A stretch of 38,572 nt of DNA, taken from UHGV virus genome UHGV-0071757; one strand, written 5' to 3'. The DNA comes from a virus. Each line of letters starts with the position of its first letter. The stretch's first letter is position 1. Made by a program: the position numbers and the translations under genes. The notes under the pieces were generated by a model. The model had not been told where the DNA came from, did not search any database, and worked only from the letters and a program-made list of their open reading frames with translations. Below, piece by piece: positions 16,731 through 38,522 of the stretch.

Positions 16731-16798
16731 CTTTGTTTGATTAATAATACATCACTGTGGCAATGCTGCGGCGATTCCTTGTATCTGGAGCAAATTAA

Positions 16799-19744: not shown

Positions 19745-19897
19745 ATGTTTCGTTGGCGTCAAAAATATGAACTGCTCACATAAAGAAGTAAGTACATTGG
19801 CAAAAAACATTGACGTCAACGAAATTAAATATAAAAATTTAAATGCTTTTTAATGACAAGAAAAGTAACTAGTGGTAAAATAACGTAGGATACTAAT

Positions 19898-20639: not shown

Positions 20640-20700
20640 ATATAAAACATCATGCAGACATATTACCAATATTAATATAAGGTAATAAAAATATAATTTA

Positions 20701-20727
20701 CAAAAAAGCCCGTTGGAAGCGACGGGC
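20701..20727 (-). terminator. hairpin terminator oriented for minus-strand transcripts
   Basis: gcccgt/acgggc stem. The U-tract is only on the minus-strand reading (plus strand has an A-tract 5' of the stem). Confidence 0.4.
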
Positions 20728-21016
20728 ATTAACCGCGGTAATGGATAAATTATTAATGTTTTTAGATTGTGAACGATATCATATTGTGCGGAAGTAGTGA
20801 AGTAACCATGTAAAATGATTGTTTCATAGCCTATGAGACACACAAGGCTTTGTGCTCTTCTGTGGATGTGTGGCTACATGTTTGAAGATCGTTGTGCCGT
20901 ATTTGTGACATACACATGGCAACATCATGCCTCAACTTTCTGTTTGTGCCATCAACTATAGATTAGTGAATGCGGTTAATGCTTGCTAAAACAGATAGTT
21001 ATGATTGGTGCTACAG

Positions 21017-21062
21017 ATTCGTAATGCGAAGGTCGTAGGTTCGACTCCTATTATCGGCACCA
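21017..21062 (+). other. att site: 3' 46 nt of a tRNA-Thr(CGU) (thrW-type) gene, partial, not a functional tRNA
   Basis: attcgtaatgcgaaggtcgtaggttcgactcctattatcggcacca has anticodon loop CGT, T-arm and acceptor 3' strand plus CCA. The 5' acceptor strand needed for a complete tRNA is absent upstream. Confidence 0.8.
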
Positions 21063-21567
21063 TTCTAATGTCTCCCCAAGTCTACTCAAGTATTTAAAAA
21101 CCTCTTATAATCCGCATGTTAGCGCCCCTTTTAGTCTTTTGACGTCTACTTAAGTACCCCAAAATCTACAGTCAATTGGGGGTACTTTTGGGGGTATTTG
21201 CTGTTCGGTTTAGTGGAGGTACCCCCAAGTGAAACTCAATGCCCGTCAAATAGACACTGCCAAGCCAAAAGAGAAGGCTTACAAGCTGGCTGATGGTGGT
21301 GGTCTGTATCTCCTGGTAAAACCTAGTGGAGGAAAATATTGGCGCTTCAAGTATCGTGTAGCTGGTAAAGAGAAGCTGTTAGCACTAGGTGTGTATCCTG
21401 AAGTTACCTTGGCTGATGCTCGTGCAAAACGTGAAGAAGCTAAAAGGGGTATCGCTGGGGGTATCGATCCGATGGAAGCGAAACGAGAGGAAAAGATTGC
21501 CCGGGAAACGCAGTTAAACAACACCTTCAAAGATATTGCCCTTGAGTGGCACAGCAGCAAATTAAAA
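21047..21567 (+). repeat. direct repeat copy A (att core + int promoter + first ~112 codons of int)
   Basis: About 90% identical by eye to 38013-38519. Contains GGGGGTACTTTTGGGGGTAT-type motifs. Confidence 0.85.
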
Positions 21568-22443
21568 AAATGGTCTGCTGGTTATGCTTCAGACATCCTC
21601 GAAGCCTTCAACAAAGATGTGTTCCCTTACATTGGCAAAAAACCAATCGCCGAAATCAAACCACTTGAACTGCTGAATGTGCTGCGGCGCATCGAGGGGC
21701 GCGGTGCTACCGAAAAAGCCAAAAAAGTGAGGCAGCGATGCGGGGAAGTTTTCCGCTATGCAATTGTCACTGGACGTGCTGAGTATAACCCTGCACCGGA
21801 TCTCACCAGCGCGATGCAAGGTCATGAATCTAATCATTATCCTTTCCTCACAGCCAAAGAATTACCTGATTTTTTCAAGGCATTGTCCAGTTACTCAGGA
21901 AGTGCATTGGTTGTTATGGCGGCTCGTCTACTGATTATCACCGGTTTGCGGACTGGCGAACTGCGCGGTGCATTATGGGATGAAATCGATCTCAACAAGG
22001 CTATCTGGGAGATACCTGCTTCACGGATGAAAATGCGTCGCCCTCATGTGGTGCCTTTGTCTAAGCAGGCTCTTTCGCTTATTGGGCAGATTAAAGAATT
22101 AACTGGCAATTATCCGCTTATGTTTCCCGGCCGTAATGATCCAAGGAAAACAATGAGCGAGGCTAGCATAAACCAAGTATTTAAACGCATCGGCTATAAC
22201 GGAAAGGTTACTGGTCATGGATTCCGGCACACCATGAGCACCATTTTGCATGAGCAGGGCTATAACACCGCGTGGATAGAGACACAGCTTGCACACGTCG
22301 ATAAAAACTCAATTCGTGGCACATACAACCATGCGCAATATCTGGATGGTCGCCGGGAGATGCTCCAGTGGTATGCCGACTATATGGATTCGCTCGAGCA
22401 TGGCGGTAACGTGGTGCATGGCAAGTTCGGAAAATGTGGATGA
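21229..22443 (+). CDS. int: P4-family tyrosine integrase
   Basis: 404 aa, GTG start. N-terminal arm-binding-type domain (GGGLYLLVKPSGGKYWRFKYR) and C-terminal catalytic residues (HGFRHT ... RGTYNHAQY). Directly downstream of the tRNA fragment. Confidence 0.9.
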   Translation: MKLNARQIDTAKPKEKAYKLADGGGLYLLVKPSGGKYWRFKYRVAGKEKLLALGVYPEVTLADARAKREEAKRGIAGGIDPMEAKREEKIARETQLNNTFKDIALEWHSSKLKKWSAGYASDILEAFNKDVFPYIGKKPIAEIKPLELLNVLRRIEGRGATEKAKKVRQRCGEVFRYAIVTGRAEYNPAPDLTSAMQGHESNHYPFLTAKELPDFFKALSSYSGSALVVMAARLLIITGLRTGELRGALWDEIDLNKAIWEIPASRMKMRRPHVVPLSKQALSLIGQIKELTGNYPLMFPGRNDPRKTMSEASINQVFKRIGYNGKVTGHGFRHTMSTILHEQGYNTAWIETQLAHVDKNSIRGTYNHAQYLDGRREMLQWYADYMDSLEHGGNVVHGKFGKCG

Positions 22444-23871: not shown

Positions 23872-24672
23872 ATGAAATTTCCAAAAACGCCCGTACAGGG
23901 GCGGGGCTTCGTTCGGCCTGAAAACCAGAATCTGCAAAATTTCGGCGAAATTATCCCGATTATTTCCGGCGTTATTGGCGGGAGTGAAACCACTATTGTT
24001 AGCGCCAGAGCGTTACATAAGGCGTTAGGTGTAGGGCGCGTTTTCCGTTCGTGGATCAAGGGGCGCATTGAAGAATACGGGTTCACGGAAGGCGTGGATT
24101 ATGAGGTTGTTGAATATTTGAGCCGACCCGATCCGGTGAGCGCAAAATCTCGCCAGCAAACCGCTCTTGAGTACATCATCACAGTGAACATGGCGAAAGA
24201 ACTGGCGATGGTCGAACGTACCGAACAGGGCCGCGCCGTTCGCCAGTACTTTATCAAATGCGAGGAGGAGCTACACAAGGTAGCGCCAGTGCGTTCCGCA
24301 GCGTTACGCCGGGAACTGAAAGCCCGTATCTCCGTTGCCAGCTACTTTAAGCCGATGTGTGCCGCGCTGGAGGCGTACCGGGCTGAACTGGGTAAAAACA
24401 CACTCCAGCACCACTACACCACGGAAGCCAATATGCTGGCGCGTATCGTGCTGGGTGGCATGACTGCAAAACAGTGGACGCAGGCGAACGGCATCACAGG
24501 CGAACCACGCGACCACATGAGCACGTTGCAGCTTGAGCACCTTTCTTACCTTGAGCAGAGCAATATCACGCTGATTGAGTTAGGCCTGGACTACCACCAG
24601 CGGAAAGCTGAATTAATTCGTCTTTCGCAGCGTTGGTTAGCCCGTCGCATGGAGGAAAACAGCCATGTGTAA
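23872..24672 (+). CDS. AntA-like antirepressor-domain protein
   Basis: 266 aa. Motif ARALHKALGVGRVFRSWIKGRIEEYGFTEGVDYEV resembles the AntA/AntB N-terminal domain as I recall it. Confidence 0.55.
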   Translation: MKFPKTPVQGRGFVRPENQNLQNFGEIIPIISGVIGGSETTIVSARALHKALGVGRVFRSWIKGRIEEYGFTEGVDYEVVEYLSRPDPVSAKSRQQTALEYIITVNMAKELAMVERTEQGRAVRQYFIKCEEELHKVAPVRSAALRRELKARISVASYFKPMCAALEAYRAELGKNTLQHHYTTEANMLARIVLGGMTAKQWTQANGITGEPRDHMSTLQLEHLSYLEQSNITLIELGLDYHQRKAELIRLSQRWLARRMEENSHV

Positions 24673-27201: not shown

Positions 27202-27492
27202 ATGAAAAGGAAAAATTCTGGCTTTACTGCCAGCGGTCTCTCTCGGCCTGAAATCAGACACGGAGATATTTACCGCGACACCAGACGTGGGGGACGAGTG
27301 GTTATTCGTCACGTTACGCCAGGCAATATCACCTACCGCCGTGAGGCTTACGAATATGACTGCGTAATGCCGCGCCGTCAGTTTGAGCGTGATTTTATTC
27401 TGGTGGAAAACAAACAACAGGCAGTGGCGAGACGTGCAGCCACGAATATTAAAAAAATCCGGGCAATGTTGGTTGCGGGAGGTAAGAAGTGA
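27202..27492 (+). CDS. small basic protein, possibly DUF4222-like
   Basis: 96 aa. RGGRVVIRHVTPGNITYRREAYEYDCVMPRRQFERDFILV resembles small proteins found upstream of primases in P4-like islands (recall, low confidence). Confidence 0.5.
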   Translation: MKRKNSGFTASGLSRPEIRHGDIYRDTRRGGRVVIRHVTPGNITYRREAYEYDCVMPRRQFERDFILVENKQQAVARRAATNIKKIRAMLVAGGKK

Positions 27493-29294
27493 AAAACGCA
27501 CCGAATTTAAAATATCAGCCGAAGGATAAATTCACCGAGGTAATCATTTTTGCCGGGACGGATGCTTACGCCCATGCTCAACACTGGATTGAAAGCGAAG
27601 GACGAAAACACGGCGATAACGTGCCTCCTGTTTACCTGGGGCCAAAGCAACTGGCAGACCTGGCGAATATCCGCATTGTCGACGATGAACGCCGCTTTGC
27701 GCGTGTCTATCTCGCGGGGGAGATAGAGCCAATCCAGATCAATGCTATTGCTGAAAAGCTGGCGCTGGCTGGTGTACAGGACGCGAAATTATACAAAGGT
27801 ATCACCGACCGGGAGCCGGAAAACTGGCGCGACTACCTGCAACGGATCCGCGAACAGGCAGAGAGTGGGGAAGTTTCAGCGATGAAATTAGCCACAAAAA
27901 ATATTGACCTATCCAGGCCAGCACTAAATCAGATGGGAGCCAGCCAGAGAGGGGAAGTGTTACTTGAATATTATGGAAGAGCACTGGCTATAAATGATGA
28001 TTCTGATGTAGTTCACCATTACAACGGAATTGTCTGGGTGCCTGTATCTGATAAGGAACTCCAGCGGTCTATGGCGAAGATTTTTATTGATGCTGGAATC
28101 AGTTATTCGCAAAACGCCATTAAATTTGCCGTAGACACAATGAAATTGAGCCTGCCTGTTATGGGCGGGGCAGACAGGAATCTTATTGGATTCAGTAACG
28201 GGGTATTTGATACCCGGACGGGAAATTTTCGGGAGCATAACAAAAATGACTGGTTGTTAAATGCCAGTGAATTACCGTTCAGCCCACCAGCAGAGGGGGA
28301 AACGCTGGCAACACATGCGCCGAATTTCTGGAAGTGGCTGCGTCGTTCGGTGGCAGATAATGATCGTAAAGCTGATCGCGTACTGGCGGCATTATTCATG
28401 GTGCTGGCGAACCGGTACGACTGGCAGTTATTCCTTGAGGTAACAGGCCCAGGCGGAAGCGGTAAAAGTGTGATGGCTGAGATTTGTACCATGCTGGCGG
28501 GTAAGGCCAACACAGTATCGGCAAGCATGAAGGCTCTGGAAGACGCAAGGGAACGCGCGTTAGTAGTTGGCTTTTCGCTGATTATCATGCCGGATATGAC
28601 TCGCTACGCTGGCGATGGTGCAGGAATTAAGGCAATTACTGGCGGCGACAAGGTGGCAATTGATCCGAAACATAAAGCCCCCTACTCCACACGTATTCCG
28701 GCAGTAGTGCTTGCGGTAAACAATAACGCCATGTCATTCAGTGACCGAAGCGGGGGGATCTCGCGTCGTAGGGTGATATTTAATTTCTCTGAGGTCGTAC
28801 CGGAGAACGAACGCGATCCCATGCTGGCGGAAAAGATAGAAGGCGAACTGGCGGTAGTGATTCGCCATTTGCTAACACGATTTACCGACCAGGACGAAGC
28901 TAAAAGACTACTTTATGAGCAGCAAAAATCAGAAGAAGCGCTGTTGATAAAGCGCGAAGGTGATTCACTGGTGGACTTTTGCGGCTATCTGATGTCGTTG
29001 GTTAAATGTGAAGGAATGATGGTGGGCAATGCGGAAATAGTGCCATTTAGCCCGAGGCGATACCTGTATCATGCTTATTTAGCCTATATGTCAGCGCATG
29101 GCCTGGGAAAACCAGTATCACTGACACGCTTTGGTACTGATATGCCAGGAGCTATGGCGGAATACGGAAAGGAGTATAAGCGGGCTAAATGCACTAAAGG
29201 CCCGGATAAAGGGCGAGTGATAACAAATGTTCTGTTAGATGATGATGCTGATGGCTGGTTGCCAGCAGCTACAGGGATTAACGACAGAACATAA
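27489..29294 (+). CDS. primase/helicase-like replication protein (D5-N/P4-alpha C-terminal type, P-loop NTPase)
   Basis: 601 aa. Walker A TGPGGSGKS preceded by a region resembling D5_N/primase C-terminal domains. Followed immediately by the iteron array. Confidence 0.75.
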   Translation: MKNAPNLKYQPKDKFTEVIIFAGTDAYAHAQHWIESEGRKHGDNVPPVYLGPKQLADLANIRIVDDERRFARVYLAGEIEPIQINAIAEKLALAGVQDAKLYKGITDREPENWRDYLQRIREQAESGEVSAMKLATKNIDLSRPALNQMGASQRGEVLLEYYGRALAINDDSDVVHHYNGIVWVPVSDKELQRSMAKIFIDAGISYSQNAIKFAVDTMKLSLPVMGGADRNLIGFSNGVFDTRTGNFREHNKNDWLLNASELPFSPPAEGETLATHAPNFWKWLRRSVADNDRKADRVLAALFMVLANRYDWQLFLEVTGPGGSGKSVMAEICTMLAGKANTVSASMKALEDARERALVVGFSLIIMPDMTRYAGDGAGIKAITGGDKVAIDPKHKAPYSTRIPAVVLAVNNNAMSFSDRSGGISRRRVIFNFSEVVPENERDPMLAEKIEGELAVVIRHLLTRFTDQDEAKRLLYEQQKSEEALLIKREGDSLVDFCGYLMSLVKCEGMMVGNAEIVPFSPRRYLYHAYLAYMSAHGLGKPVSLTRFGTDMPGAMAEYGKEYKRAKCTKGPDKGRVITNVLLDDDADGWLPAATGINDRT

Positions 29295-29319
29295 TACGAA
29301 ATTTATAAGCTGAAACGTA

Positions 29320-29660
29320 AAGGTAGACGGTTGGTAGACAGATTCACTTAACCCTCTACCAACCATCTACCAATTAATATTTTGAATTATAAAGATATTT
29401 TCAATGTGGTAGAGAGGTAGACAGTTATTTCTATATTCCTAAACCACGGGGGGTATATAAAAAACAGATAGTTAAGGGGGCATTTTTTAAATTTCTCTTT
29501 TAACTGTCTACACTGTCTACCATTTAGTAAAAATCATTAATTATCAATGTATTAATGCGGTAGACCGTTGGTAGACAGTTTGCAGATTGTTTTTTTGTTA
29601 TGTGTTAATAACATTAAATAAATCAATCAATTATATCGGTAGACAGTTGGTAGACAGTTG
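29320..29660. repeat. putative island replication origin: ~12 GGTAGAC(N)G iterons in both orientations with AT-rich spacers
   Basis: Copies at about 29322, 29333, 29354(rc), 29364(rc), 29408, 29416, 29505(rc), 29514(rc), 29558, 29568, 29637 and 29648. AT-rich stretches lie between clusters. Confidence 0.6.
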
Positions 29661-29665
29661 TAACG

Positions 29666-30208
29666 ATGGGGCAAAGCATGACTAAGCTGACCATTAACAG
29701 AAAACCAAAAGGTATTTACGGCACGCCGCAGAAAACGACGCAGGCGGCACAGGAGCAGGATAAAACCACATCGGCGCATAAAGTGATGCCCGGTAACCAG
29801 AAAGCGCAGCAGAAGCCTACAGGGGCGACACCGTGGCGGCATATGACCAAACGCCAGCGCAAAAACCGCAGGCGCGTTAACCGCCTCACTGAGTTGTGGC
29901 CTGACTTATTCAGCCGGGAAGCACTGAAGCCGCTTAAGGTGGGGATATTCGACGACCTGATGCAGGATCTCGCCGTCAGGGGGCTGGCATTCGGGCCAGG
30001 GGCATTGCGTGCGACGCTGGCATCTTATGCGCAGTGTCCGCGCTATTACCGCGCCTTAATGGCTGGTGGGGTACGCTACGACCTGAAAGGCCAGCCGTGC
30101 GGCGAGGTGACACCACAGGAACAACAGGACGCAGAAACGCGGCTGGTGGCGCTGAATGAGAAGCGCAAACGCCAGCGCCGGGCAGCAAAGGAGACAATAG
30201 GCGCATGA
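29666..30208 (+). CDS. ProQ/FinO-family RNA-binding protein
   Basis: 180 aa. LTELWPDLFSREALKPLKVGIFDDLMQDL...RYDLKGQPCGEV matches the FinO/ProQ N-terminal domain pattern. Basic N- and C-terminal tails. Confidence 0.7.
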   Translation: MGQSMTKLTINRKPKGIYGTPQKTTQAAQEQDKTTSAHKVMPGNQKAQQKPTGATPWRHMTKRQRKNRRRVNRLTELWPDLFSREALKPLKVGIFDDLMQDLAVRGLAFGPGALRATLASYAQCPRYYRALMAGGVRYDLKGQPCGEVTPQEQQDAETRLVALNEKRKRQRRAAKETIGA

Positions 30209-30492
30209 TTCACGACAGCAAAGCGGAAGCACTGGAAGCGCGTGGTCTGTACCGGAGAGCGGCGGCGCGGTGGGCTGAGGTCATCATGCTGGCGAATGAT
30301 GACAAGGCACGGGAACAGGCGGCAAAACGTCGCGCGGAATGTATCCACAAGGCAGCACGCCCACCAGCAAGGCAGGATAATTTCGGGGAGATGCGCGAAA
30401 CCATCAGCCGGGCACATGCCGGGATGGGATTACATCAGCCCAATGGTGAGGCATTCAGGAAATACCAAAAAAAGAACAATTGTAGTCAGTAA
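30205..30492 (+). CDS. PerC-family transcriptional regulator
   Basis: 95 aa. SKAEALEARGLYRRAAARWAEVIMLANDDKAREQAAKRRAECI resembles PerC-type activators. Overlaps the upstream stop. Confidence 0.65.
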   Translation: MIHDSKAEALEARGLYRRAAARWAEVIMLANDDKAREQAAKRRAECIHKAARPPARQDNFGEMRETISRAHAGMGLHQPNGEAFRKYQKKNNCSQ

Positions 30493-30626
30493 CAGAGGAT
30501 GGGATTCTCTTGGTTTTTTGTTGATGCTTTCTGAGGAAATCTACTACGTTGCTGAGCAGATGAATATTCAATTGCATCTGGGTTCCTGATAAGATTAATC
30601 TGAATATTTTCATTTGGAATAGGGAT

Positions 30627-31769
30627 ATGAATAAAACTTTAATTGCAACATTAGTCGGTATAGTAATGTTAACCGGATGTGGGCCAGAAGAGTTAACTCC
30701 AGAACAGAAACAGGAAGTAGCTGCTCTTAAAGCTGAACTGTCGCAAACGGAAGGTGAAATATCAGCAGCTAAGGAAGTTGACCAGCAGTTTTCTGGTGGG
30801 TTGATAAAAAATCTGACAACAGCAAGACTGGAAATATTAGGAACTAATAAAGCGCTTTTGGAACAGCGTATTAATGCTATTGAATCAGGTGCCAAAATTG
30901 ATGTTGTTGTATCTGGAGTAAAACCTGATCCTGAGCTTGCGGCTTCAATTAAAACTGAAATTGACAGCTTAGATGCAAAAATCAACGAAGCCAAAGCTGA
31001 TGCTCGTCAGTATAGTGGTGGTCTGATAAAGGTACTAAAATTATCTACTGTTGCCACTGAAGAGCAGACCATGGCAATGTTGCAGCAAAAGTACCTCACA
31101 GCCAAGTATGGCCTCGCTGAAGTTAAGCTGGCATCAGTACAAGCTAATGACGCAAAAAACAGTACTGAAACGGAAGTAACAGCCAAAAATTCCCAAGAGC
31201 AACTTCCTTTACTCCCGCCAGCGGATGGTCCGTTTGGCTTAGAAGCCGGTCTTACACAGAAAAACATCGAAGATATGATCGGTGCTAAGCTCAAGCCACT
31301 ACCAGACAGTGTGAATCTGTATACTTCTGATAAATTACCGAAGCAAAACGCAGATTTTGAAATGTATGGTTTGCTGATCTCCCCGAAAGCTGGTTTATGT
31401 CAAATACGGGCTTTAGGAAAAAATATTGATACTGATAGCTATGGATTGGCTCTTAAATCCAAGTTTGAAGAATTGAGTAATTCTTTAAGTTCTCTGTATG
31501 GAAAGGCTGATACTACAGACTTTTTGCTGGCTGGTTCAATTTGGAAAGATCCTCAGGACTGGATGAGGGGGCTAAACAAAAAAGAACGCTTCTTATCTGC
31601 TACATGGAAGGGAACAAAAGAAATACCATTAAAAAACAATATTGATACTATATCTATTGAGGCCAGAGCGAACAATTCCACTCAGGGATATGTCTATCTG
31701 CAGTACTCATTTACAAATGACGAAATTTGTCAGGCAGAAATTGAAGGGGCGAAAAAAAGTTCCCTTTAA
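30627..31769 (+). CDS. lipoprotein with internal repeat, unknown function
   Basis: 380 aa. Signal peptide plus lipobox VMLTGCG. Duplicated (Q/R)Q(F/Y)SGGLIK segments. Strong terminator downstream. Confidence 0.7.
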   Translation: MNKTLIATLVGIVMLTGCGPEELTPEQKQEVAALKAELSQTEGEISAAKEVDQQFSGGLIKNLTTARLEILGTNKALLEQRINAIESGAKIDVVVSGVKPDPELAASIKTEIDSLDAKINEAKADARQYSGGLIKVLKLSTVATEEQTMAMLQQKYLTAKYGLAEVKLASVQANDAKNSTETEVTAKNSQEQLPLLPPADGPFGLEAGLTQKNIEDMIGAKLKPLPDSVNLYTSDKLPKQNADFEMYGLLISPKAGLCQIRALGKNIDTDSYGLALKSKFEELSNSLSSLYGKADTTDFLLAGSIWKDPQDWMRGLNKKERFLSATWKGTKEIPLKNNIDTISIEARANNSTQGYVYLQYSFTNDEICQAEIEGAKKSSL

Positions 31770-31780
31770 ACAATCCGTGC

Positions 31781-31806
31781 AAAGCCCCTTAGTAAGGGGC
31801 TTTTAT
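31781..31806 (+). terminator. rho-independent terminator
   Basis: agcccctt/aaggggct stem followed by TTTT. Confidence 0.7.
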
Positions 31807-31833
31807 ATATTAATGTTCAACGTGGGGGATTAG

Positions 31834-32157
31834 ATGAAAGATAATCTAGCAAAACTAATTGAAAATACTTTAAAAGATATTCTATTAGCTAATGCTGCTC
31901 TAACATTCATTTTTGCAATACCAATGGCTATTATCAGTAGGCATGGGATGGGCATCACAATCTGGTTTATAACTGTGCTCATTGCACCTGCTCTGTGTGC
32001 AGTAGGTGCATGGCTTGTATCTCGAACATCCGGCCATGCTGAGGAGTTCTTTCATCGTCGGTGGGCTAAGCGAATTTATGTTTTTTATACTCTTGCGGCT
32101 GCCGAGTTTTTGCTTGTGTACTCAATCGCGCAAATAATGAAAAATCTGATGAAATAA
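31834..32157 (+). CDS. small inner-membrane protein
   Basis: 107 aa with 2-3 predicted TM segments (LLANAALTFIFAIPMAII, ITIWFITVLIAPALCAVGAWLV). SD GGGGGA upstream. Confidence 0.55.
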   Translation: MKDNLAKLIENTLKDILLANAALTFIFAIPMAIISRHGMGITIWFITVLIAPALCAVGAWLVSRTSGHAEEFFHRRWAKRIYVFYTLAAAEFLLVYSIAQIMKNLMK

Positions 32158-32445
32158 TTAACAAGTTATTATCATGGAGCTTGTGGCTGTTAACCTGCAG
32201 TGAGGCGACAATCGTGTATTTATAAAAACTTCCCCTTTTCACTCCCCGCAGCTTCTTCTGCTATTGCCTTTATGTTTGCATGCACCAACATCTGCCATAC
32301 CTTTGCAGAAAAATCAGAGCATTCAGTGCCGAAGGTTGGTTTATTGATGCTTTTCGTTTCATTTATTGCAATTGTCTCTGGTATCATTTCAATTTGTGCA
32401 ATAATTGCAATAATTGCAATTATTGTCATTCAGAAGGGATCATCA

Positions 32446-32612
32446 TGAAAAATCACGGAGTAAAGCCAGTTTTACTTTCCCGGAGGCAGATCGAAGCCCT
32501 GCAACGCATCCAGGACGAAGAGCGTCAGAAATCTGTGCTTGGTGTGGCACCGTCGATTCATGTTATCGCTCGGCAACTGATGGATAAGGCACTTAAAGAG
32601 GTGAGACTGTGA
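32446..32612 (+). CDS. hypothetical small protein (possible DNA-binding/antitoxin-like)
   Basis: Taken from the internal ATG 32446 of the 32280-32612 ORF, with AAGGG upstream, giving 55 aa. Basic helical segment SRRQIEALQRIQDEERQ. Confidence 0.4.
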
Positions 32613-32881
32613 AATTAAATATCAGAGTGGATAAACGCCAGCTATGGCAGAAAAAAGAGAACAGCGAGGCATTCAGGGCGTTGCTGGTGGAAAATCTTCA
32701 GCATCGGTTCAGTGGAGAGTTGCCTGATGCTCTAGGGAAGAAACTGGAATCCCTGACGGTGGAAATTGGCGATTATGGCTTTGTTGATGTTGAAAGCACG
32801 ACTGCCAACACAGAAATCGTAAAACAGGTCGTCAATGATGTAATGAAAACCACGCTTAGCCAGCCATCCTGGCGCAACTGA
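32609..32881 (+). CDS. hypothetical protein
   Basis: 90 aa, GTG start overlapping the upstream stop (GTGA). Followed by a hairpin. Confidence 0.5.
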   Translation: MKLNIRVDKRQLWQKKENSEAFRALLVENLQHRFSGELPDALGKKLESLTVEIGDYGFVDVESTTANTEIVKQVVNDVMKTTLSQPSWRN

Positions 32882-32886
32882 ATCAG

Positions 32887-32912
32887 TAAGGGGCGGTTAT
32901 TGCCCCTTTCCT
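32887..32912 (+). terminator. putative terminator hairpin
   Basis: aaggggc/gcccctt stem. The U-tract is weak (tttcc). Confidence 0.45.
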
Positions 32913-32962
32913 CCATACCCACAACGCATTCCCTTTCCGCATGAAATTATTTTTTATCGTAT

Positions 32963-33508
32963 ATGCATGAGGTGAGCTACATGTTGATGAGTAAAGCCGA
33001 ATACGCCAAATACAAAGGCGTAAGCCGCCAGACAGTTTACGACTGGCTCGAGAAAGGCGAAGTGGTCATGTCCGGTAAAAAAATTGATGTGGAAGCGACA
33101 GAGCAGCGGAACAGCCCACCAGCACAGGGGAAAGACACCATTTCTGAAATGTGGCCAGAAAGAACGCTGGAAATGACATGGGGCGAGTTCTGGAAAGCAG
33201 TTAAGGCCAGAGACGGTAAAATTCCTGCGCCAGTAACGGACGAGGGCATACAGCAGCGTGTGCTGTATGCAGCCGGGGAATTAGGCTGGGAAGTGCACTT
33301 TCTTGATGATGGTGCTATCTGCCTTGAGGATGATGAAGGGCAGCATTACTTTGAAAAATACAATTTGCGAGGTAATGCCAGGCTGGCAATTCGTATGCTG
33401 CGTTGCGAACTCTGCTATGTTGCAGGTGATTATCCCGATGAACCGGAATCATGGAGTGAAGCCGGGTTAAACGCCCTGGCTGAGTGGGAAAAATCAGACC
33501 ATCAATGA
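32963..33508 (+). CDS. helix-turn-helix DNA-binding protein
   Basis: 181 aa (a likelier start is ATG 32981 after GAGG). N-terminal HTH SKAEYAKYKGVSRQTVYDWLEKGEV. Ends 3 nt before the repeat region. Confidence 0.65.
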   Translation: MHEVSYMLMSKAEYAKYKGVSRQTVYDWLEKGEVVMSGKKIDVEATEQRNSPPAQGKDTISEMWPERTLEMTWGEFWKAVKARDGKIPAPVTDEGIQQRVLYAAGELGWEVHFLDDGAICLEDDEGQHYFEKYNLRGNARLAIRMLRCELCYVAGDYPDEPESWSEAGLNALAEWEKSDHQ

Positions 33509-33510
33509 CA

Positions 33511-33810
33511 TCAAAAAGTGTCAAGTTGAGCAGCTTGCCAGCTTGCCAGCTTGCCAGCTTGCCAGCTTGCCAGCTTGCCAGCTTGCCAGGTTGACACTTT
33601 ACACTCTGAACGCGAAAAAGTGTCAACCTCGCTGTAAGCCCCGCAATTACTGGGTTTGTGCCAGATTTACCACGTCAAAAAGCCGAAAAAACCGCGAAAA
33701 ATGTCAAGTTGCCATGCTTAGAAATGCTAAGGTTTTTCGCGAAAAAGTGTCAAGTGTGTCAACCTGCGATATTAAGATTTATTAAGGTCTTAAGCCGGAA
33801 AGTGTCAACC
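33511..33810. promoter_or_regulatory. array of dispersed (A)AAGTGTCAA(G/C) motifs (about 7 copies, one inverted)
   Basis: Motif copies near 33517, 33590(rc), 33619, 33700 (variant ATGTCAAG), 33746, 33755 and 33801, several with a CGCGAAAAA prefix. Confidence 0.6.
33531..33586. repeat. (CAGCTTGC)x7 octanucleotide tandem repeat
   Basis: Counted directly: 7 perfect 8-nt units (56 nt), flanked by inverted half-sites AGTGTCAA (33516-33523) and TTGACACT (33591-33598). Confidence 0.95.
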
Positions 33811-33929
33811 AGCCCCCTAAGATTTCCTAAGGTGTGATTGGACGTGCTGTACCCTTCTTGTCGCAATGTGGATGAATGACTATAGTGCTGGTAGCTTTGA
33901 CAGCAGAATCAGATTACTGAAGGAAATGT

Positions 33930-34514
33930 GTGATGAGTTTTTTTAGTCTTTATGGGAAAGAACTATTTTCTTTTTTTATAACGATTTTAACATGGATACT
34001 GAATAACAGATTTAAAAGCAAGGCAAAGTTATCCTATGGTTATCAGCATGGATTTACTTTTCTTCTCAATGAACCCTTACGGAATGCCAATGGTGAGGTA
34101 ATATCTAATTCACAGTTGGTGTATACACGATCTATTATTCTTGTTAATGAAGGGCGAGAAAGTGCTACTAATATCTCATTGGTTTTTAACTATAAGCCAA
34201 TGCATATTAATTTTTGGCCTGTCCACCATTTTGAAGAAAATATTGAACAGGATGGTCGCTATATTATCAAGTTTGAAAGCCTTGCACCTGGTGAGTCTAT
34301 TCAATGTGAAATATTATCAATAAATAGAGAAGTTCCAAGTATTCTATCGATAAGATCTAAAGAGTGTGTGGCTGAGCCAGTGAATATCGTGATGCAAAAA
34401 TCGATTAGTAATATTGCCTTACGTTGCTATCAATTATTAATACTTCTTGGAACTGGCACATTAACATATTTAATTATCGTTATTCTGCAATGGTTAGTCA
34501 CTAAAACGGGATAA
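33930..34514 (+). CDS. AT-rich membrane-anchored protein, unknown function
   Basis: 194 aa. N-terminal TM (LFSFFITILTWIL) and C-terminal TM (LLILLGTGTLTYLIIVILQWLV). Markedly AT-rich codon usage by eye. Confidence 0.6.
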   Translation: MMSFFSLYGKELFSFFITILTWILNNRFKSKAKLSYGYQHGFTFLLNEPLRNANGEVISNSQLVYTRSIILVNEGRESATNISLVFNYKPMHINFWPVHHFEENIEQDGRYIIKFESLAPGESIQCEILSINREVPSILSIRSKECVAEPVNIVMQKSISNIALRCYQLLILLGTGTLTYLIIVILQWLVTKTG

Positions 34515-34536
34515 TCCATTGTATTGAACTTATTAA

Positions 34537-34746
34537 TTGGATATGAGTGCTGATAGGAAACCTATGACCATCACCGAAGCCGATATGCTGGAGATGATCC
34601 GCAGCATTGCCGGAATCAAACAACCAGCAAGCAAAATTAACAGGTGTTCAGCGCCTGTTTCCGTTGTGCTGCAACAGGAACGCCACCAGCGGCGGGAAAA
34701 CGAAAAGGCGTACCAATGGACGAAGCCAAACAAGTTACGGCGTTAA
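34537..34746 (+). CDS. hypothetical small protein (uncertain)
   Basis: 69-aa ORF followed by a good terminator. No motif. Confidence 0.35.
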   Translation: MDMSADRKPMTITEADMLEMIRSIAGIKQPASKINRCSAPVSVVLQQERHQRRENEKAYQWTKPNKLRR

Positions 34747-34752
34747 TTAGGG

Positions 34753-34778
34753 ATGCGGGCTGGGATAGCCCGCATTTT
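34753..34778 (+). terminator. rho-independent terminator (possibly bidirectional)
   Basis: atgcgggct/agcccgcat stem followed by TTTTG. Lies between convergent ORFs. Confidence 0.6.
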
Positions 34779-34780
34779 GC

Positions 34781-35038
34781 TCACAGCTTGTTATAAATTT
34801 TTCCAGCGAAGTCATGAACCGCCTGAGGAATATCCGACGGCGTACCTAGCATTGTTGGCGCATCGGAAACAAAGAACATGATCGCTTCTTTGATTTCTTT
34901 GAAAGATGGGGTAGGGGTAATGCGCTTGAGATTTGAAACAGCCCGTCGGAACTCCGCCGTATCCATTGGATGCCTGCTAAACCACGTTGGACTAGAAGCC
35001 CAACATTTTACTGCTTCTTTCACCTTAGTGTTCATCAT
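34781..35038 (-). CDS. hypothetical small protein
   Basis: 85 aa, tandem ATG start with SD AAGGAAAA upstream on the minus strand. Confidence 0.5.
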   Translation of the reverse strand: MMNTKVKEAVKCWASSPTWFSRHPMDTAEFRRAVSNLKRITPTPSFKEIKEAIMFFVSDAPTMLGTPSDIPQAVHDFAGKIYNKL

Positions 35039-35640
35039 TTTTCCTTTTGCTTATTACCATACAAAGCATGTGGAAAGAGAAGATTAACATGGAAAATATG
35101 GGGTTGGTGAGCAAATGGTACTGGTAGCCCGTCGACATCTATCAGCATGATGATGTGAGGCCGTATCAGTGGCGGAAACCGAACAGGCTGCGACGGTGAG
35201 CGGGGCGTTATAGTAAGCCAACAGCCAAGCCAAACATTAAGCCTAAGGGTAGGGCTTTTTTGTGGCTGGTGGCGTAATGCCAACATTTTTACATGATGTT
35301 TTGAGGTATTATCTGCATGTTCGTGGTGAGGAACCACCAGAACTGATGAGCTTTTGTTTATGCATGTACTGCATGAAAACTGTCCTATAAAGTGGGGGGT
35401 AGGTGTGCTGAGGAGAACATTGTGAGCTACGCCAAATTAAATTGTGTCGGGGGTGAACAAGTTTCTTGATAGGTGTCAGTAGGCACCTATAGTTATAGGC
35501 TTCTTCAATTTTGTGTGCACAATATTTTGTATTGATTGGGGATAGGGTTGCACGCAAAATTAAAAAATGTATATTTATTAACGTGTATTTGATAATTTTT
35601 AAATAAAATATTTCTCTATGTTTATCATAAAAGGTTTTTT

Positions 35641-37239
35641 ATGAGCGTGGCAATAAAAACAATGACACCAGTGTCATATTCTATAAAAGTTGATGCGATT
35701 AAGAAAAGATTGTCATATTTTAGTGATGTTTCTTTTTTGAGAAATTTTTATGAACACTTCCAAAAAGTAAGGGATGTCGAGGTGGGTATTGTTTCCAATT
35801 TCCCTTGGTGTTGCTATCTGGCAATGAAATGGAAGTTTTGCATGAAGGAAAAAAAGCCTGCAAAAGAAATGAGTAAAAATGATTTTGTTGATATTATCAA
35901 CTTAATCTATAACTTGCAACTAGAAGCATCTAATTTAATCGTTGATGATAAAGTTATGCTAAGCCTTAGACGAATGGTGATAAATCAGTTGCTTTATCAA
36001 TCAACTGATAAATTTAATGCCAATTCATTAACAAGACAGTATATTTGGTATTGCTTGAATGATGAATCATATTATAAAGATAAGTTTTTAGAATGTACTG
36101 GTTTACATTTGGAAAACTATTACAAAATGGCATGTTATTTTACCGCTATTTCATGTATTAATCCTGATATAGAATCAGAGGTTATTCCATTTAAACACTT
36201 GATAATAAACTTGGTTCCGATATTTGGTCCGGAACAAGTGAAAAGATTTTTGGAATTAACATGCTTAAAAATTGATGGTGTGAGAGATTTTATTGCCCCA
36301 TATAAATTGGATAAAAACATTACCGCTGAGTATTATGAAGATACACCATTCCTCAGTAAACCAATGTTTTTAGATGGCGATGGTGTAGTGATATTATGCA
36401 AAAGAATCATGAAGTCAGGGTTTGTCAACCTAGTTCCAGAATTGTTCAAGCAGGTCTATAAGGAATCTTATAAAGAAAAATTTGGTAAGACGATGGAACT
36501 TTATATTTCTCGCTTTCTTGATAAGTACAATTATAACTTTAAGACTGAAAGGGAGGTTAAGAGGATTTATAGTGATAATGCAATAAAAAATTGCAAGTCC
36601 GTAGATTTTGTTATTTCAGAGGGAGATTCAATAGTTTATATTGACTCGAAGGCAATAGAGCCTGCAAAGTTCGTTAAAACATCTAATAATGCTCAGTTGC
36701 TAAAGGAAAGGTTGAATAAGAGTTTTATTAAAGGGATTTATCAAGGTCAGGAATGTGCTTTTAACTTAAATAAAATAGAGATGAGAAAACCATCTTCGAA
36801 AGATTCAATGTTAATTGTGGTGCATCGGGATCATCATATATCAAATGCAATGGTTGTGCAGGATTTTATTAACCCTGATTTATCAACTGAGTTATCTGAA
36901 AAATATCATAGTATCCCCATTGATCTAAAAAGAATTTACTATATAACAATTGATGAGTTCGAATTATTACTTATGATGTGTAAACAGAAAGAACTATCTA
37001 TTAATGAGTTTATTGATATGTGTGTGGAAAAAGATTCATTCCCTCATACTCAGAAGTCTAATCTAAGCATGCACATATATGAATTTGCACCAGAGGGTAT
37101 TGATGATGATCAATTGATTGTAAAAGGAAGAGACTTACTGATTGATGATGTTATTGAAAATATGAAAGAGAGTGCATCAAAATGGTCTGGGAAAGTTGAT
37201 ATGTATCTTAAAATAAAAGATTATATTTTTAATTGGTAA
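35641..37239 (+). CDS. orphan 532-aa protein, possible PD-(D/E)xK-like nuclease motif; candidate defence/accessory protein
   Basis: Long ORF with strongly AT-rich codon usage, its own AT-rich upstream region and a strong terminator. Segment SVDFVISEGDSIVYIDSKA fits a beta-hairpin D ... (D/E)xK pattern. No other recognisable motif. Confidence 0.7.
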   Translation: MSVAIKTMTPVSYSIKVDAIKKRLSYFSDVSFLRNFYEHFQKVRDVEVGIVSNFPWCCYLAMKWKFCMKEKKPAKEMSKNDFVDIINLIYNLQLEASNLIVDDKVMLSLRRMVINQLLYQSTDKFNANSLTRQYIWYCLNDESYYKDKFLECTGLHLENYYKMACYFTAISCINPDIESEVIPFKHLIINLVPIFGPEQVKRFLELTCLKIDGVRDFIAPYKLDKNITAEYYEDTPFLSKPMFLDGDGVVILCKRIMKSGFVNLVPELFKQVYKESYKEKFGKTMELYISRFLDKYNYNFKTEREVKRIYSDNAIKNCKSVDFVISEGDSIVYIDSKAIEPAKFVKTSNNAQLLKERLNKSFIKGIYQGQECAFNLNKIEMRKPSSKDSMLIVVHRDHHISNAMVVQDFINPDLSTELSEKYHSIPIDLKRIYYITIDEFELLLMMCKQKELSINEFIDMCVEKDSFPHTQKSNLSMHIYEFAPEGIDDDQLIVKGRDLLIDDVIENMKESASKWSGKVDMYLKIKDYIFNW

Positions 37240-37243
37240 TTAA

Positions 37244-37275
37244 GCAAGGGTGTTATTATCAACACCCTTGCTCAT
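37244..37275 (+). terminator. rho-independent terminator
   Basis: 11-bp stem gcaagggtgtt/aacacccttgc with a 6-nt loop. Confidence 0.65.
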
Positions 37276-38012
37276 AGTCTTACAATATTAAATGTTGTGT
37301 TTTTTATTTATATATTTTATTGCCCATCAAGCTATTAATTCATCTCGTTGTTTGAGATAGGTTGAGCATTTGTATTTTTTTATCAATTTTATCTGTATGA
37401 GCTTAAGCAGCTTCAATAATATCTGCGTTAAATTACGCTTCATTCAGAGACGTGCTTGCTATTGACATGTAATCCATGTGCAACAAGATTCCTGCCATAA
37501 CTTATGCGTTTCAGATCCGAATCATGGACTGCTTTAAGTCATTTTTGTAGGGAAAACATGTTCACATGTCAGCACTGATTTGTTTCATCATATCCACTAT
37601 CTCGAATTTCTGTGTCGATAGATGAATGCAGACGGAAATATGTGAATTTTGTGCACGCTCTGCTATTAAGCGAAAACGAGCGTGGATATATCAACTAATA
37701 ATTGCCCTCATTAACATAGGTGGTGGCGGGTATAATCTCTGTAACCCAGTTGTTCGTGACTACCCACCTCGTCAAATTTTCACACCCGCGAAATGAAAAA
37801 TACTTCACGCTAGTGGTTATCCTTGGGCATCCACCAGCCCTTCATCATTGCCTGCCGGTGAGGCTGAGGCTCGAAGAAAAAGAGTGCTAGATAGTCGATT
37901 TTTGCCTGGTTTGGGATAAGGGAAAATTTATTGGGGGTACTTTTGGGGGTATCTATAAAAATGAAATATGAAAATATCATTAAATATCAATGTATTTTTT
38001 GTTTATGTTTTG

Positions 38013-38029
38013 TTCCTATTATCGCACCA
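38013..38029 (+). other. second att core: 16 nt matching the tRNA-Thr 3' end (tcctattatcg-cacca)
   Basis: Matches 21047-21062 with a 1-nt deletion, then continues into the duplicated int promoter region. Confidence 0.75.
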
Positions 38030-38519
38030 TTCTAACGTCTCCCCAAGTCTACTCAAGTATTTAAAAACCTCTTATAATCAGTATATTAATGCCCCTTTTA
38101 GTCTTTTGACGTCTATTTAAGTACCCCAAACTCTACAAGCAATTGAGGGGATTTGCTGTTCAGTTTAGTGGAGATACCCCCAAGTGAAACTCAATGCCCG
38201 TCAAATAGACACTGCCAAGCCAAAAGAGAAGGCTTACAAGCTGGCTGATGGTGGTGGTCTGTATCTCCTGGTAAAACCTAGTGGAGGAAAATATTGGCGC
38301 TTCAAGTATCGTGTAGCTGGTAAAGAGAAGCTGTTAGCACTAGGTGTGTATCCTGAAGTTACCTTGGCTGATGCTCGTGCAAAACGTGAAGAAGCTAAAA
38401 GGGGTATCGCTGGGGGTATCGATCCGATGGAAGCGAAACGAGAGGAAAAGATTGCCCGGGAAACGCAGTTAAACAACACCTTCAAAGATATTGCCCTTGA
38501 GTGGCACAGTAACAAATTA
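38013..38519 (+). repeat. direct repeat copy B (att core + int promoter + int 5' end)
   Basis: Aligns by eye with 21047-21567, with a ~12-nt deletion in the GGGGTAC motif region and scattered mismatches. Confidence 0.85.
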
Positions 38520-38522
38520 TAA
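38184..38522 (+). pseudogene. truncated P4-family integrase (N-terminal 112 codons only)
   Basis: Identical to int residues 1-109, then diverges (HSNKL-stop) into unrelated AT-rich sequence. No catalytic domain. Confidence 0.8.

What the first reader, a model, noticed from the sequence alone, without database searches (positions are those of the whole stretch)
30627..32157. Cargo module 1: repeat-containing lipoprotein plus small membrane protein
After the regulators, the first cargo genes encode a 380-aa lipoprotein (lipobox LTGC) whose N-terminal half has two copies of a (Q/R)Q(F/Y)SGGLIK-containing segment, and a 107-aa multi-TM protein, separated by a strong terminator. These envelope proteins have no obvious role in island maintenance and could act in phage exclusion or surface modification.
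Basis: inference. Interest (0 to 1): 0.4.

Follow-up and report, generated by a model that had tools for sequence, protein, structure and literature searches.

The report
Moron-type envelope lipoprotein in a phage satellite
Both genes are real: the first encodes an uncharacterised two-domain outer-membrane lipoprotein with its own promoter and terminator that travels among satellites, prophages and chromosomes, so it is an ordinary kind of mobile accessory gene whose function, possibly blocking incoming phages in the periplasm, is untested.

Summary
ORF 30627-31769 encodes a 380-aa lipoprotein (lipobox LTGC, Gly at +2). Its N-half is an internal duplication carrying QQFSGGLIK and RQYSGGLIK. 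A 10-bp-stem terminator follows, then a 107-aa three-TM protein.

The element is a ~17-kb PICI-like satellite at thrW, next to a P22-like prophage.

The lipoprotein gene behaves as a moron. It is AT-rich (40% GC against 56-59% upstream). It keeps a conserved ~65-nt promoter-bearing leader and a terminator in unrelated contexts: after the primase in several satellite lineages, beside the tape-measure gene or tail genes of prophages, and as a chromosomal orphan.

In E. coli both genes lie in the conserved backbone, upstream of the variable defence hotspot (GapS1 here).

Function is unknown. My best guess is a prophage-state periplasmic protection factor, meaning entry exclusion or toxin neutralisation. 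It is a new member of a known kind, of moderate interest.

The parts
30567..30595 (+). Predicted sigma-70 promoter of the lipoprotein cassette: -35-like TTCAAT (30567-30572), 17-nt spacer ending in TG (30587-30588), -10 TAAGAT (30590-30595)
   Evidence: Read from the sequence. The generic scan did not list it because the -35 matches only 3 of 6 positions. Support comes from conservation. The last 42 nt before the ATG are 71-86% identical in 8 loci with unrelated surroundings, and identity falls to background (16-34%) beyond -66. A TGnTAGGAT/TAAGAT element and a -35-like hexamer at 17-nt spacing are kept. Function is inferred, not shown.
30592..30601 (.). 10-bp perfect palindrome AGATTAATCT overlapping the -10 and +1 region. 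Most homologous cassettes have GGATTAATCC, so both halves are changed here.
   Evidence: Alignment of upstream regions. Possibly an operator. This is a single-lineage double change, so the evidence is weak.
30627..31769 (+). 380-aa lipoprotein gene (stop codon included)
   Evidence: ORF. 318 homologous clusters. dN/dS 0.05. No family hit in Pfam, NCBIfam, PHROGs or PADLOC.
30627..30680 (+). Signal peptide plus lipobox L-T-G-C (Cys18 codon at 30678-30680). Gly at +2 predicts outer-membrane sorting.
   Evidence: Sequence. Invariant G17, C18, G19 and P20 in alignment A1. The sorting prediction follows the established Lol-avoidance rule (Asp at +2 retains a lipoprotein in the inner membrane) and comes from my own knowledge.
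30699..30887 (+). N-domain repeat 1: helical hairpin, aa 25-87, with QQFSGGLIK at the turn
   Evidence: AF2 model: H25-53 and H59-87. Internal repeat E = 2e-7.
30930..31109 (+). N-domain repeat 2: helical hairpin, aa 102-161, with RQYSGGLIK at the turn
   Evidence: AF2 model: H102-126 and H133-161. Repeat alignment. This module occurs fused to other C-domains elsewhere.
31110..31214 (+). Variable, predicted-disordered linker, aa 162-196
   Evidence: pLDDT 21-45. It is the least conserved stretch in A1.
31215..31766 (+). C-terminal alpha/beta domain, aa 197-380, with motifs GPFGL, GLC, GSIW, ER-L--W, GY and N--C. The Cys258/Cys368 pair is invariant in the lipoprotein family (A1) and at least 90% conserved in the standalone set (A3).
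31781..31803 (+). Intrinsic terminator of the lipoprotein cassette
   Evidence: 10-pair stem with 5 GC pairs and a T-rich tail. A hairpin plus T-run follows the homologous gene in most other contexts, with a different sequence each time.
31834..32157 (+). 107-aa predicted three-TM inner-membrane protein. It is a lineage-restricted companion gene.
   Evidence: ORF. Only 17 homologous clusters. It lies directly after the lipoprotein gene wherever found. dN/dS 0.16. The Yokenella copy has in-frame stops. GC is 38.9%, like the lipoprotein gene.

Best explanation
**Shown.**
- The 380-aa gene is a self-contained moron cassette, consisting of promoter-bearing leader, gene and terminator. It lies inside a ~17-kb PICI-like satellite integrated at thrW.
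- It encodes a two-module lipoprotein. The lipid-anchored N-module is two helical hairpins tipped by (F/Y)SGGLIK. A ~35-residue flexible linker joins it to a ~185-residue alpha/beta C-domain with a conserved cysteine pair.
- The same cassette is found in several satellite lineages, in the tail modules of temperate phages, and as chromosomal orphans.
- The C-domain alone is also a secreted cargo protein of filamentous prophages and integrase-bearing islands.
- The 107-aa three-TM protein is a lineage-specific add-on that sits behind the lipoprotein gene.

**Inferred.**
- The protein is made constitutively from the quiescent element, anchored in the inner leaflet of the outer membrane, and works in the periplasm.
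- The anchor and spacer position the C-domain near the peptidoglycan or inner-membrane face. There it binds a conserved host envelope component.
- This protects the carrier cell from things that must cross the periplasm. Most likely these are the genome-ejection apparatus of superinfecting phages (superinfection exclusion at a post-adsorption step). Alternatively they are periplasm-delivered toxins.

The confidence value given (0.4) applies to the whole statement, mechanism included. I would put about 0.75 on 'moron-type accessory periplasmic lipoprotein expressed in the carried state'. I would put about 0.3-0.35 on 'its role is phage exclusion'.
For: **Moron hallmarks** (as defined in PMC3594210).
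- GC is 40.1% (GC3 31.8%), against 58.6% and 55.6% for ProQ and PerC just upstream and 47-50% downstream.
- There is a strong terminator, and terminators follow the gene in most other contexts.
- The leader from -1 to -42 is 71-86% identical in 8 unrelated contexts and at background beyond -66. It contains a TGn-extended -10.

**Mobility.** The gene was found in these settings:
- directly after DUF927, D5 or DUF5906 primases in islands of E. coli, E. ruysiae, Enterobacter, Pantoea and a MAG (L009), and in primase-bearing islands of Tatumella and Lonsdalea with a small ORF between;
- next to the tape-measure gene in Xenorhabdus, Pantoea and Proteus prophages;
- after baseplate and tail-fibre genes of another prophage;
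- as an orphan in Rouxiella, and between der and the M4 protease gene in an Enterobacter MAG.
- It is absent from the related thrW PICI EcCIMP1.

**Periplasmic action.**
- The lipobox is followed by invariant Gly-Pro.
- Standalone C-domains carry Sec signal peptides cleaved just before GPFGL.
- A Klebsiella phage 2b relative is a lipoprotein with Asp at +2, encoded just upstream of its tape-measure gene.
- The cysteine pair is conserved.

**MGE cargo character of the C-domain.** It sits in the post-zot slot of V. cholerae filamentous prophages, and beside DUF3800, restriction-modification or KAP-NTPase genes in islands.

**Precedents, from the literature rather than tested here.** HK97 gp15 is a tail-operon moron that blocks genome entry, and Cor is another prophage-expressed protein that blocks infection, via FhuA (PMC3594210). 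That Cor and Llp are outer-membrane lipoproteins is my own knowledge.
Against: - There is no functional data and no detectable homology to any characterised exclusion protein. PADLOC and PHROG annotation give nothing.
- Very strong purifying selection (dN/dS 0.05) and deep conservation of motifs across Proteobacteria are not what is usually seen for proteins that contact fast-evolving phage parts. This fits a host target, but it fits a housekeeping-like envelope role equally well.
- Tail-region morons also include virulence or fitness genes such as lom, so location is not specific to exclusion.
- Orphan chromosomal copies that persist without any phage or satellite suggest a benefit independent of the element.
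- The promoter is predicted only.
- Outer-membrane sorting follows a rule of thumb.
Confidence: 0.4

Rival explanations
1. It is a host-fitness or virulence conversion factor unrelated to phages. The lipoprotein alters envelope physiology, for example stress tolerance, serum resistance, adhesion, or peptidoglycan or outer-membrane homeostasis. It is carried by mobile elements because it benefits the bacterium, as lambda Bor or Lom do.
For: - It has moron architecture and is carried on prophages and satellites, as Bor and Lom are (PMC3594210).
- Orphan and remnant copies are retained in chromosomes after the element is gone.
- dN/dS of 0.05 and deep motif conservation point to a conserved host partner.
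- The lipid anchor, spacer and globular head resemble outer-membrane lipoproteins that reach periplasmic partners.
Against: - There is no similarity to Bor/Iss, Lom/Ail, LpoB (17 bits against a cut-off of 110) or any annotated envelope family.
- Its frequent neighbours are anti-phage genes such as GapS1, AAA+DUF4435, KAP NTPase, restriction-modification and DUF3800.
- Four phage or prophage copies sit next to the tape-measure gene.
Confidence: 0.27
2. It is a periplasmic immunity-type protein. The C-domain neutralises a periplasm-delivered antibacterial toxin, such as a T6SS, Rhs/CDI or colicin-type effector. The gene spreads as an orphan immunity gene on mobile elements.
For: - One alternative head on the same N-scaffold is a VasI (T6SS-associated) domain.
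- The Pseudomonas MAG copy lies about 3 kb from a Tli3 T6SS immunity gene.
- Cor sets a precedent: it blocks FhuA and also protects against colicin M.
Against: - No toxin or effector gene is adjacent in any of the contexts whose neighbours were examined.
- Immunity proteins usually diversify with their toxins, whereas this family is strongly conserved.
Confidence: 0.13
3. It is a satellite life-cycle function. The lipoprotein, with or without the 107-aa membrane protein, acts during helper-phage induction. It might modulate lysis timing, act like a spanin, or keep released particles from re-adsorbing to debris, as T5 Llp does.
For: - It holds a fixed position right after the primase/ori module in several satellite lineages and within the conserved backbone of the E. 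coli islands.
- It has the same orientation as the satellite operon.
- A terS-like HTH protein lies downstream (phrog_57, E = 2.2e-6).
Against: - The same cassette, with its own leader and terminator, occurs in prophages, as a chromosomal orphan and in remnant islands.
- A strong terminator isolates it from downstream genes.
- The related, experimentally mobilised PICI EcCIMP1 lacks it.
- There is no similarity to spanins, holins or packaging proteins.
Confidence: 0.1

Closest known systems
HK97 gp15 moron (superinfection exclusion; Cumby et al. 2012, reviewed in PMC3594210)
   Same: It is an independent transcription unit with atypical GC, inserted in an otherwise conserved operon. Four phage or prophage copies of the present family sit next to the tape-measure gene, and in three of them between the tail-chaperone region and the tape-measure gene, as gp15 does. 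It is an envelope protein presumed to be expressed from the repressed element. It also has non-phage chromosomal homologues.
   Different: gp15 is a small inner-membrane protein of the YebO family. Here the product is a 380-aa two-domain outer-membrane-type lipoprotein with no sequence relation to it. Exclusion activity has not been shown here.
Cor (phi80/N15/HK022) and Llp (T5) exclusion lipoproteins
   Same: They are phage-borne outer-membrane lipoproteins made to protect the carrier cell. They act on a conserved host component (FhuA), which would fit the strong purifying selection seen here.
   Different: Cor and Llp are about 60-80 residues with a single domain. No sequence, PHROG or Pfam relation was found. 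No target is known here.
Ltp of Streptococcus phage TP-J34 (PMC3952083 abstract; the domain layout and tape-measure target are from my own knowledge)
   Same: It is a lipid-anchored exclusion protein with a spacer and tandemly repeated helical modules, reported to target the incoming tape-measure protein.
   Different: It comes from a Gram-positive host and is surface-exposed, and its repeats are HTH-like. No homology was detected. The repeats here form the anchor-proximal half, and a separate globular head is present.
Lambda Bor/Iss and Lom (lysogenic-conversion envelope proteins)
   Same: They are prophage morons that encode outer-membrane proteins or lipoproteins benefiting the host independently of phage biology.
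   Different: There is no homology, and size and architecture are very different.
Periplasmic T6SS/Rhs immunity proteins (RhsI1, PDB 6xtd_B) and DcrB/PsbP/Mog1-like alpha/beta sandwiches

Membership tests
Bacterial (Braun-type) lipoprotein | Signal peptide with positive n-region, hydrophobic core and lipobox [LVI][ASTVI][GAS]C | tested here: met
   The N-terminus reads MNK-TLIATLVGIVM-LTG-C18. Cys18 is invariant in 22 homologues.
Bacterial (Braun-type) lipoprotein | Outer-membrane sorting, meaning no Asp at +2 | tested here: met
   Gly19-Pro20 is invariant. This is a rule-based prediction only. Acylation and localisation cannot be tested with these tools.
Moron (Juhala/Hendrix definition, PMC3594210) | GC content differs from surrounding genes | tested here: met
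   40.1% for the lipoprotein gene and 38.9% for TM107, against 56-59% upstream and 47-50% downstream.
Moron (Juhala/Hendrix definition, PMC3594210) | Own terminator | tested here: met
   10-bp stem plus T-rich tail at 31781-31803. Terminators follow the gene in most other contexts.
Moron (Juhala/Hendrix definition, PMC3594210) | Own promoter, active in the repressed element | tested here: inconclusive
   A conserved leader with TGnTA(A/G)GAT and a -35-like hexamer travels with the gene. Activity and timing of expression were not testable.
Moron (Juhala/Hendrix definition, PMC3594210) | Present or absent among otherwise related elements, and found in unrelated elements | tested here: met
   Absent from EcCIMP1. 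Present in satellites with three primase types, in sipho- and myo-type prophages, and as orphans.
PICI/satellite packaging or interference proteins (TerS, Rpp, Ppi, Cpm) | Sequence homology to these families | tested here: not met
   No Pfam, NCBIfam or PHROG hit for either protein. The terS-like hit belongs to the separate 181-aa protein at 32963-33508.
Known anti-phage defence systems (PADLOC-DB v2) | Match to a defence-protein HMM | tested here: not met
   No hit for either protein. The database dates from 2023, so newer systems are not covered.
LpoB (penicillin-binding protein activator) | Score above the NCBIfam cut-off over the LpoB domain | tested here: not met
   17.4 bits against a cut-off of 110.55, and only residues 3-71, which cover the signal peptide and the start of the protein.
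T6SS/Rhs periplasmic immunity proteins | Clear fold or sequence membership | tested here: inconclusive
T6SS/Rhs periplasmic immunity proteins | Adjacent cognate effector gene | tested here: not met
   No effector gene next to the gene in any context whose neighbours were examined. One locus has a Tli3 immunity gene about 3 kb away.

The most novel reading that the evidence does not exclude
The lipoprotein may reveal a large, unannotated system of modular periplasmic guard proteins. A conserved double-hairpin (SGGLIK) lipoprotein scaffold would display interchangeable head domains: GPFGL/GSIW, VasI-like (phrog_1848), and at least two others. These heads also circulate as free secreted proteins on temperate, filamentous and satellite elements. 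Together they would form a new class of envelope-level anti-phage or anti-toxin defence, acting on conserved host entry machinery rather than on nucleic acids.
Probability: 0.2. Interest if true: 0.65.

Novelty: new member of a known kind. Interest (0 to 1): 0.38.

Why it matters
- Both domains of this protein are invisible to Pfam, NCBIfam, PHROG annotation and PADLOC. Yet the profile finds 2869 representative clusters at 50% identity, and the loci examined were repeatedly on mobile elements.
- If the family is an envelope-level exclusion or immunity factor, it would add a widespread defence layer that is not nucleic-acid-based. It is carried by satellites and prophages of clinically important Enterobacterales, including E. 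coli O104:H4/55989, Klebsiella and Enterobacter. That would bear on phage-therapy host range.
- If it is instead a fitness factor, it is a common lysogenic-conversion gene worth annotating.
- Either way, the result refines the map of this PICI lineage. The backbone runs to about 33768 and contains a fixed moron. The true variable defence hotspot lies beyond it.

Tried and rejected
- **Family scans.** Pfam, NCBIfam, PHROGs and PADLOC gave nothing for either protein. The weak LpoB and SA0632 hits cover only the signal peptide and the first residues of the mature protein.
- **Isolated phages.** tblastn against 50,697 phage records found no match for the full protein or the C-domain, even at E <= 1. 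Only a distant standalone member, P0192, found Klebsiella phage 2b.
- **AFDB search.** Foldseek against AFDB50 was unavailable.
- **Solved structures.** Profile searches of PDB sequences with A1 and A3 found only designed coiled coils or noise.
- **VasI link.** hhalign of the C-domain profile against the VasI-like head of P0184 showed no relation (probability 0.2). The heads are therefore truly alternative domains.
- **EcCIMP1.** I tested whether this lipoprotein could explain the unexplained superinfection immunity of the related thrW PICI EcCIMP1 (PMC11773190). EcCIMP1 does not carry the gene, so that link is rejected.
- **Literature.** Searches for the protein accession and for PICI, lipoprotein and exclusion terms found no description of this protein. 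The VasI search was uninformative.
- **Obligate-pair idea.** An obligate two-gene lipoprotein-plus-membrane-protein system is rejected because of the 318 versus 17 cluster counts and the many lipoprotein-only contexts.
Full report

Yes. The window has ORF 30627..31769 (+, 380 aa) and ORF 31834..32157 (+, 107 aa).

- The first begins MNKTLIATLVGIVMLTGC, a textbook lipoprotein signal peptide with lipobox L-T-G-C. In an alignment of 22 homologues (60-100% identity), Cys18 and the following Gly-Pro are invariant.
- QQFSGGLIK (aa 53-61) and RQYSGGLIK (aa 127-135) belong to a genuine internal duplication, with 33% identity over 51 residues and pairwise E = 2e-7.
- A 10-pair hairpin followed by a T-rich tail lies at 31781-31803, between the two genes.
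- The 107-aa product has three hydrophobic spans.
- Both genes are under purifying selection against their Klebsiella counterparts: dN/dS is 0.05 for the lipoprotein and 0.16 for the membrane protein.

**2. Where it sits**

- Window 1 to about 20,000 is the late region of a P22-like prophage. It has a P22 portal, a stabilisation protein and an endosialidase tailspike at 16799-19744.
- The att core TCCTATTATC occurs exactly twice, at 21046-21055 and 38014-38023. It is the same core reported for the thrW PICI EcCIMP1 (PMC11773190).
- Between the two cores lies a ~17-kb island, in this order:
  - integrase (21229-22443) and AntA (23872-24672);
  - DUF4222 (27202-27492) and a P4/D5-type primase (27489-29294);
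  - an iteron-rich intergenic region;
  - ProQ/FinO and PerC;
  - the two genes in question;
  - small ORFs and a 181-aa HTH protein with weak small-terminase similarity;
  - a 194-aa protein and GapS1 (NCBIfam E = 6e-132).
- A second integrase gene begins at 38184, so elements are stacked in tandem at thrW.
- This layout, integrase then antirepressor/AlpA-type region then primase then PerC, is that of Gram-negative PICIs (PMC6092414, PMC11773190).

**3. Backbone or variable cargo?**

- In E. coli, 113 of 5426 complete genomes carry the lipoprotein/TM segment at 95% identity or better, including O104:H4 and 55989.
- In strain 55989 the block ProQ-PerC-lipoprotein-TM-small ORFs-181-aa protein is identical or nearly so. 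The primase is a different type (DUF927), and the terminal cargo is AAA ATPase + DUF4435 instead of GapS1.
- Only 6 genomes share at least 80% of 27489-38100. Many share only up to about 33768.
- In other hosts the same block is followed by SEFIR-like or ORC/CDC6-like genes.

So in this island lineage the two genes belong to the conserved part. The variable defence hotspot starts downstream of them.

**4. The lipoprotein gene is nevertheless an autonomous, mobile cassette**

*Composition.* The lipoprotein gene is 40.1% GC and TM107 is 38.9%. ProQ and PerC are 58.6% and 55.6%, and the genes after them are 47-50%.

*Terminator.* A terminator follows the gene here and in most other contexts, with unrelated stem sequences.

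*Leader.* The 42 nt before the start codon are 71-86% identical in eight loci whose surroundings are otherwise unrelated, while identity beyond -66 is at background. This leader holds a TGn-extended -10 (TAAGAT here, TAGGAT elsewhere) and a -35-like hexamer at 17-nt spacing. In the window these span 30567-30595.

*Contexts.* Among species-representative genomes and other assemblies, the gene is found in these settings:
- immediately after the primase of islands with three different primase types, in E. ruysiae, Enterobacter hormaechei, Pantoea and a MAG (L009), and in primase-bearing islands of Tatumella and Lonsdalea with a small ORF between;
- in lambdoid prophages next to the tape-measure gene, in Xenorhabdus, Pantoea gossypiicola and Proteus;
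- after baseplate and tail-fibre genes of another prophage;
- in IS-riddled remnants at thrW in Klebsiella;
- as a single-gene orphan in Rouxiella, and between der and an M4 protease gene in an Enterobacter MAG, the very site where related strains carry a full island.

The experimentally studied thrW PICI EcCIMP1 lacks the gene.

Three of the four criteria of a moron, as summarised in PMC3594210, are therefore met. The fourth, promoter activity, is supported only by conservation.

**5. What the protein is**

*Structure.* AlphaFold2 on the family alignment gives two helical hairpins (H25-53/H59-87 and H102-126/H133-161) with the SGGLIK motifs at the turns, then a disordered linker (aa 161-194), then a compact alpha/beta domain. 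Modelled alone, the C-domain reaches pLDDT 83.7 and pTM 0.80.

*Family size.* An exhaustive profile search finds 2869 representative clusters at E <= 1e-3 and shows that the halves are independent modules.

*The C-domain as a free protein.* It exists as ~195-aa proteins whose Sec signal peptide is cleaved right before the conserved GPFGL. The motifs GLC, GSIW, ER-L--W, GY and N--C and a cysteine pair are conserved.

*The N-module as a scaffold.* It is always a lipoprotein and is fused elsewhere to at least four other heads:
- a VasI-like domain (PF11319, which matches phrog_1848 at E = 6e-25);
- a 'DYQDY...RAIKG...SILY-DG-RRDF' domain;
- two small beta-rich domains.

*Annotation.* None of these proteins has a Pfam domain or an informative name.

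*Contexts of the free C-domain*:
- the cargo slot after zot in V. cholerae filamentous prophages next to rtxA;
- an integrase/AlpA/polB island beside DUF3800 in Shewanella;
- an integrase plus restriction-modification island;
- a KAP-NTPase/IS region in Herminiimonas.

*Phage relatives.*
- A remote relative in temperate Klebsiella phage 2b is an unannotated lipoprotein with Asp at +2, directly upstream of the tape-measure gene. It is linked to the family through phrog_28385.
- The Xenorhabdus prophage carries a secreted protein that, by eye, resembles the VasI-like head, in the same moron cluster as the lipoprotein.

*Fold comparisons give no firm assignment.*
- The best BFVD match is a 'lipoprotein' of Erwinia phage Midgardsormr38, with E = 1.7e-6 and TM 0.61-0.64.

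**6. The 107-aa membrane protein**

- It has only 17 homologous clusters.
- Wherever examined, it lies immediately after a lipoprotein gene of the closest clade: E. coli, E. ruysiae, Klebsiella, the three P0122-bearing assemblies, and Yokenella.
- It diverges faster than the lipoprotein: 67-71% against 88% identity in Klebsiella.
- It is a pseudogene in Yokenella.
- It shares the AT-rich composition.

It is best seen as a lineage-restricted passenger, or an optional partner, of the cassette. It is not part of an obligate two-gene system.

**7. How it most likely works**

*Shown:* a self-contained, horizontally mobile cassette encoding a lipid-anchored, periplasm-facing, two-module protein under strong purifying selection.

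*Inferred:*
- It is expressed constitutively from the quiescent element and sorted to the outer membrane, because Gly rather than Asp is at +2.
- The hairpin module and ~35-residue linker hold the C-domain in the periplasm.
- The domain works whether it is free, inner-membrane-anchored or outer-membrane-anchored. Its target must therefore be periplasmic.
- Its slow evolution points to a conserved host component rather than a phage protein.

*Best guess:* the carriers are temperate phages (often right beside the tape-measure gene), filamentous phages and satellites, and the neighbours are frequently anti-phage genes. On that basis I favour a protective role at the entry step, in the manner of HK97 gp15, Cor/Llp or Ltp. 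I put this at about 0.3-0.35.

*Rivals:*
- a phage-independent envelope fitness factor (about 0.27);
- an immunity-type neutraliser of periplasmic toxins (about 0.13);
- a satellite life-cycle function (about 0.1).

None of these is excluded by the data.

**8. Novelty and verdict**

The kind of thing, a moron-encoded envelope lipoprotein on a prophage or satellite, is well known. The protein family and its modular scaffold-plus-head organisation are undescribed as far as the libraries and literature searched here show.

I rate it a new member of a known kind, with moderate interest (0.38). Its 'cargo' reading is right in spirit, but the genes are a fixed moron in the island backbone rather than variable cargo. 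The proposed exclusion function remains to be tested.

Noticed in passing
window 1-20000, 21046-21055, 38014-38023, 38184-38522: Three elements are stacked at thrW. The first is a P22-like prophage late region with an endosialidase (K1-type) tailspike at 16799-19744. The second is the ~17-kb satellite, bounded by the att core TCCTATTATC. The third begins with a second integrase gene whose first 112 codons are 98% identical to the integrase of the E. coli 55989 island (L001), preceded by a repeat of the int-upstream region. The neighbouring P22-like prophage could be the helper, as Kapi1 is for EcCIMP1.
   Followed up: partly
window 35641-37239 and 33930-34514: A GapS1-family anti-phage protein (NCBIfam E = 6e-132) and an AT-rich 194-aa protein occupy the terminal variable hotspot. 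Related islands carry AAA+DUF4435, SEFIR-like or ORC/CDC6-like genes there. PADLOC v2 did not recognise GapS1.
   Followed up: partly
window 32963-33508: A 181-aa protein has an N-terminal HTH_17/excisionase-like motif and a weak small-terminase match (phrog_57, E = 2.2e-6). It is conserved in all related islands and is a candidate packaging-redirection protein.
   Followed up: no
window 33531-33593: A perfect-looking tandem array (CAGCTTGC) x 7.9 lies just downstream of the terS-like gene. Its role is unknown. It could be a pac or recognition site, or a slippage-prone tract.
   Followed up: no
window 29350-29660: GGTAGACAGTT iterons occur in both orientations in the 370-bp gap after the primase gene. 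This is the position where PICI replication origins are described (PMC6092414).
   Followed up: no
window 30592-30601: The palindrome AGATTAATCT overlaps the predicted -10 and +1 of the lipoprotein gene. Most homologous cassettes have GGATTAATCC, so the two half-sites changed together. It could be an operator for an unknown dimeric regulator.
   Followed up: no
L030 (Xenorhabdus koppenhoeferi prophage) 8226-11134: A four-gene moron cluster lies between the tape-measure and gpM genes. It comprises a secreted protein that by eye resembles the VasI-like head, a 2-TM zinc-ribbon protein, a small secreted Cys-rich protein, and the lipoprotein. Two of the alternative head families thus co-occur in one prophage.
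   Followed up: partly
L029 (Enterobacter hormaechei) 1653-21140: Two near-identical int-AlpA-Bro-Ash-primase islands lie in tandem at the der locus. The first carries the lipoprotein, so tandem satellite arrays are not unique to the window.
   Followed up: no
window 32200-32448: Between TM107 and the 55-aa ORF there are overlapping small ORFs on both strands. RefSeq annotates a 66-aa minus-strand CDS here in strain 55989. The region also contains a (TGCAATAAT) x 3 repeat at 32397-32425. Coding status is unclear.
   Followed up: no
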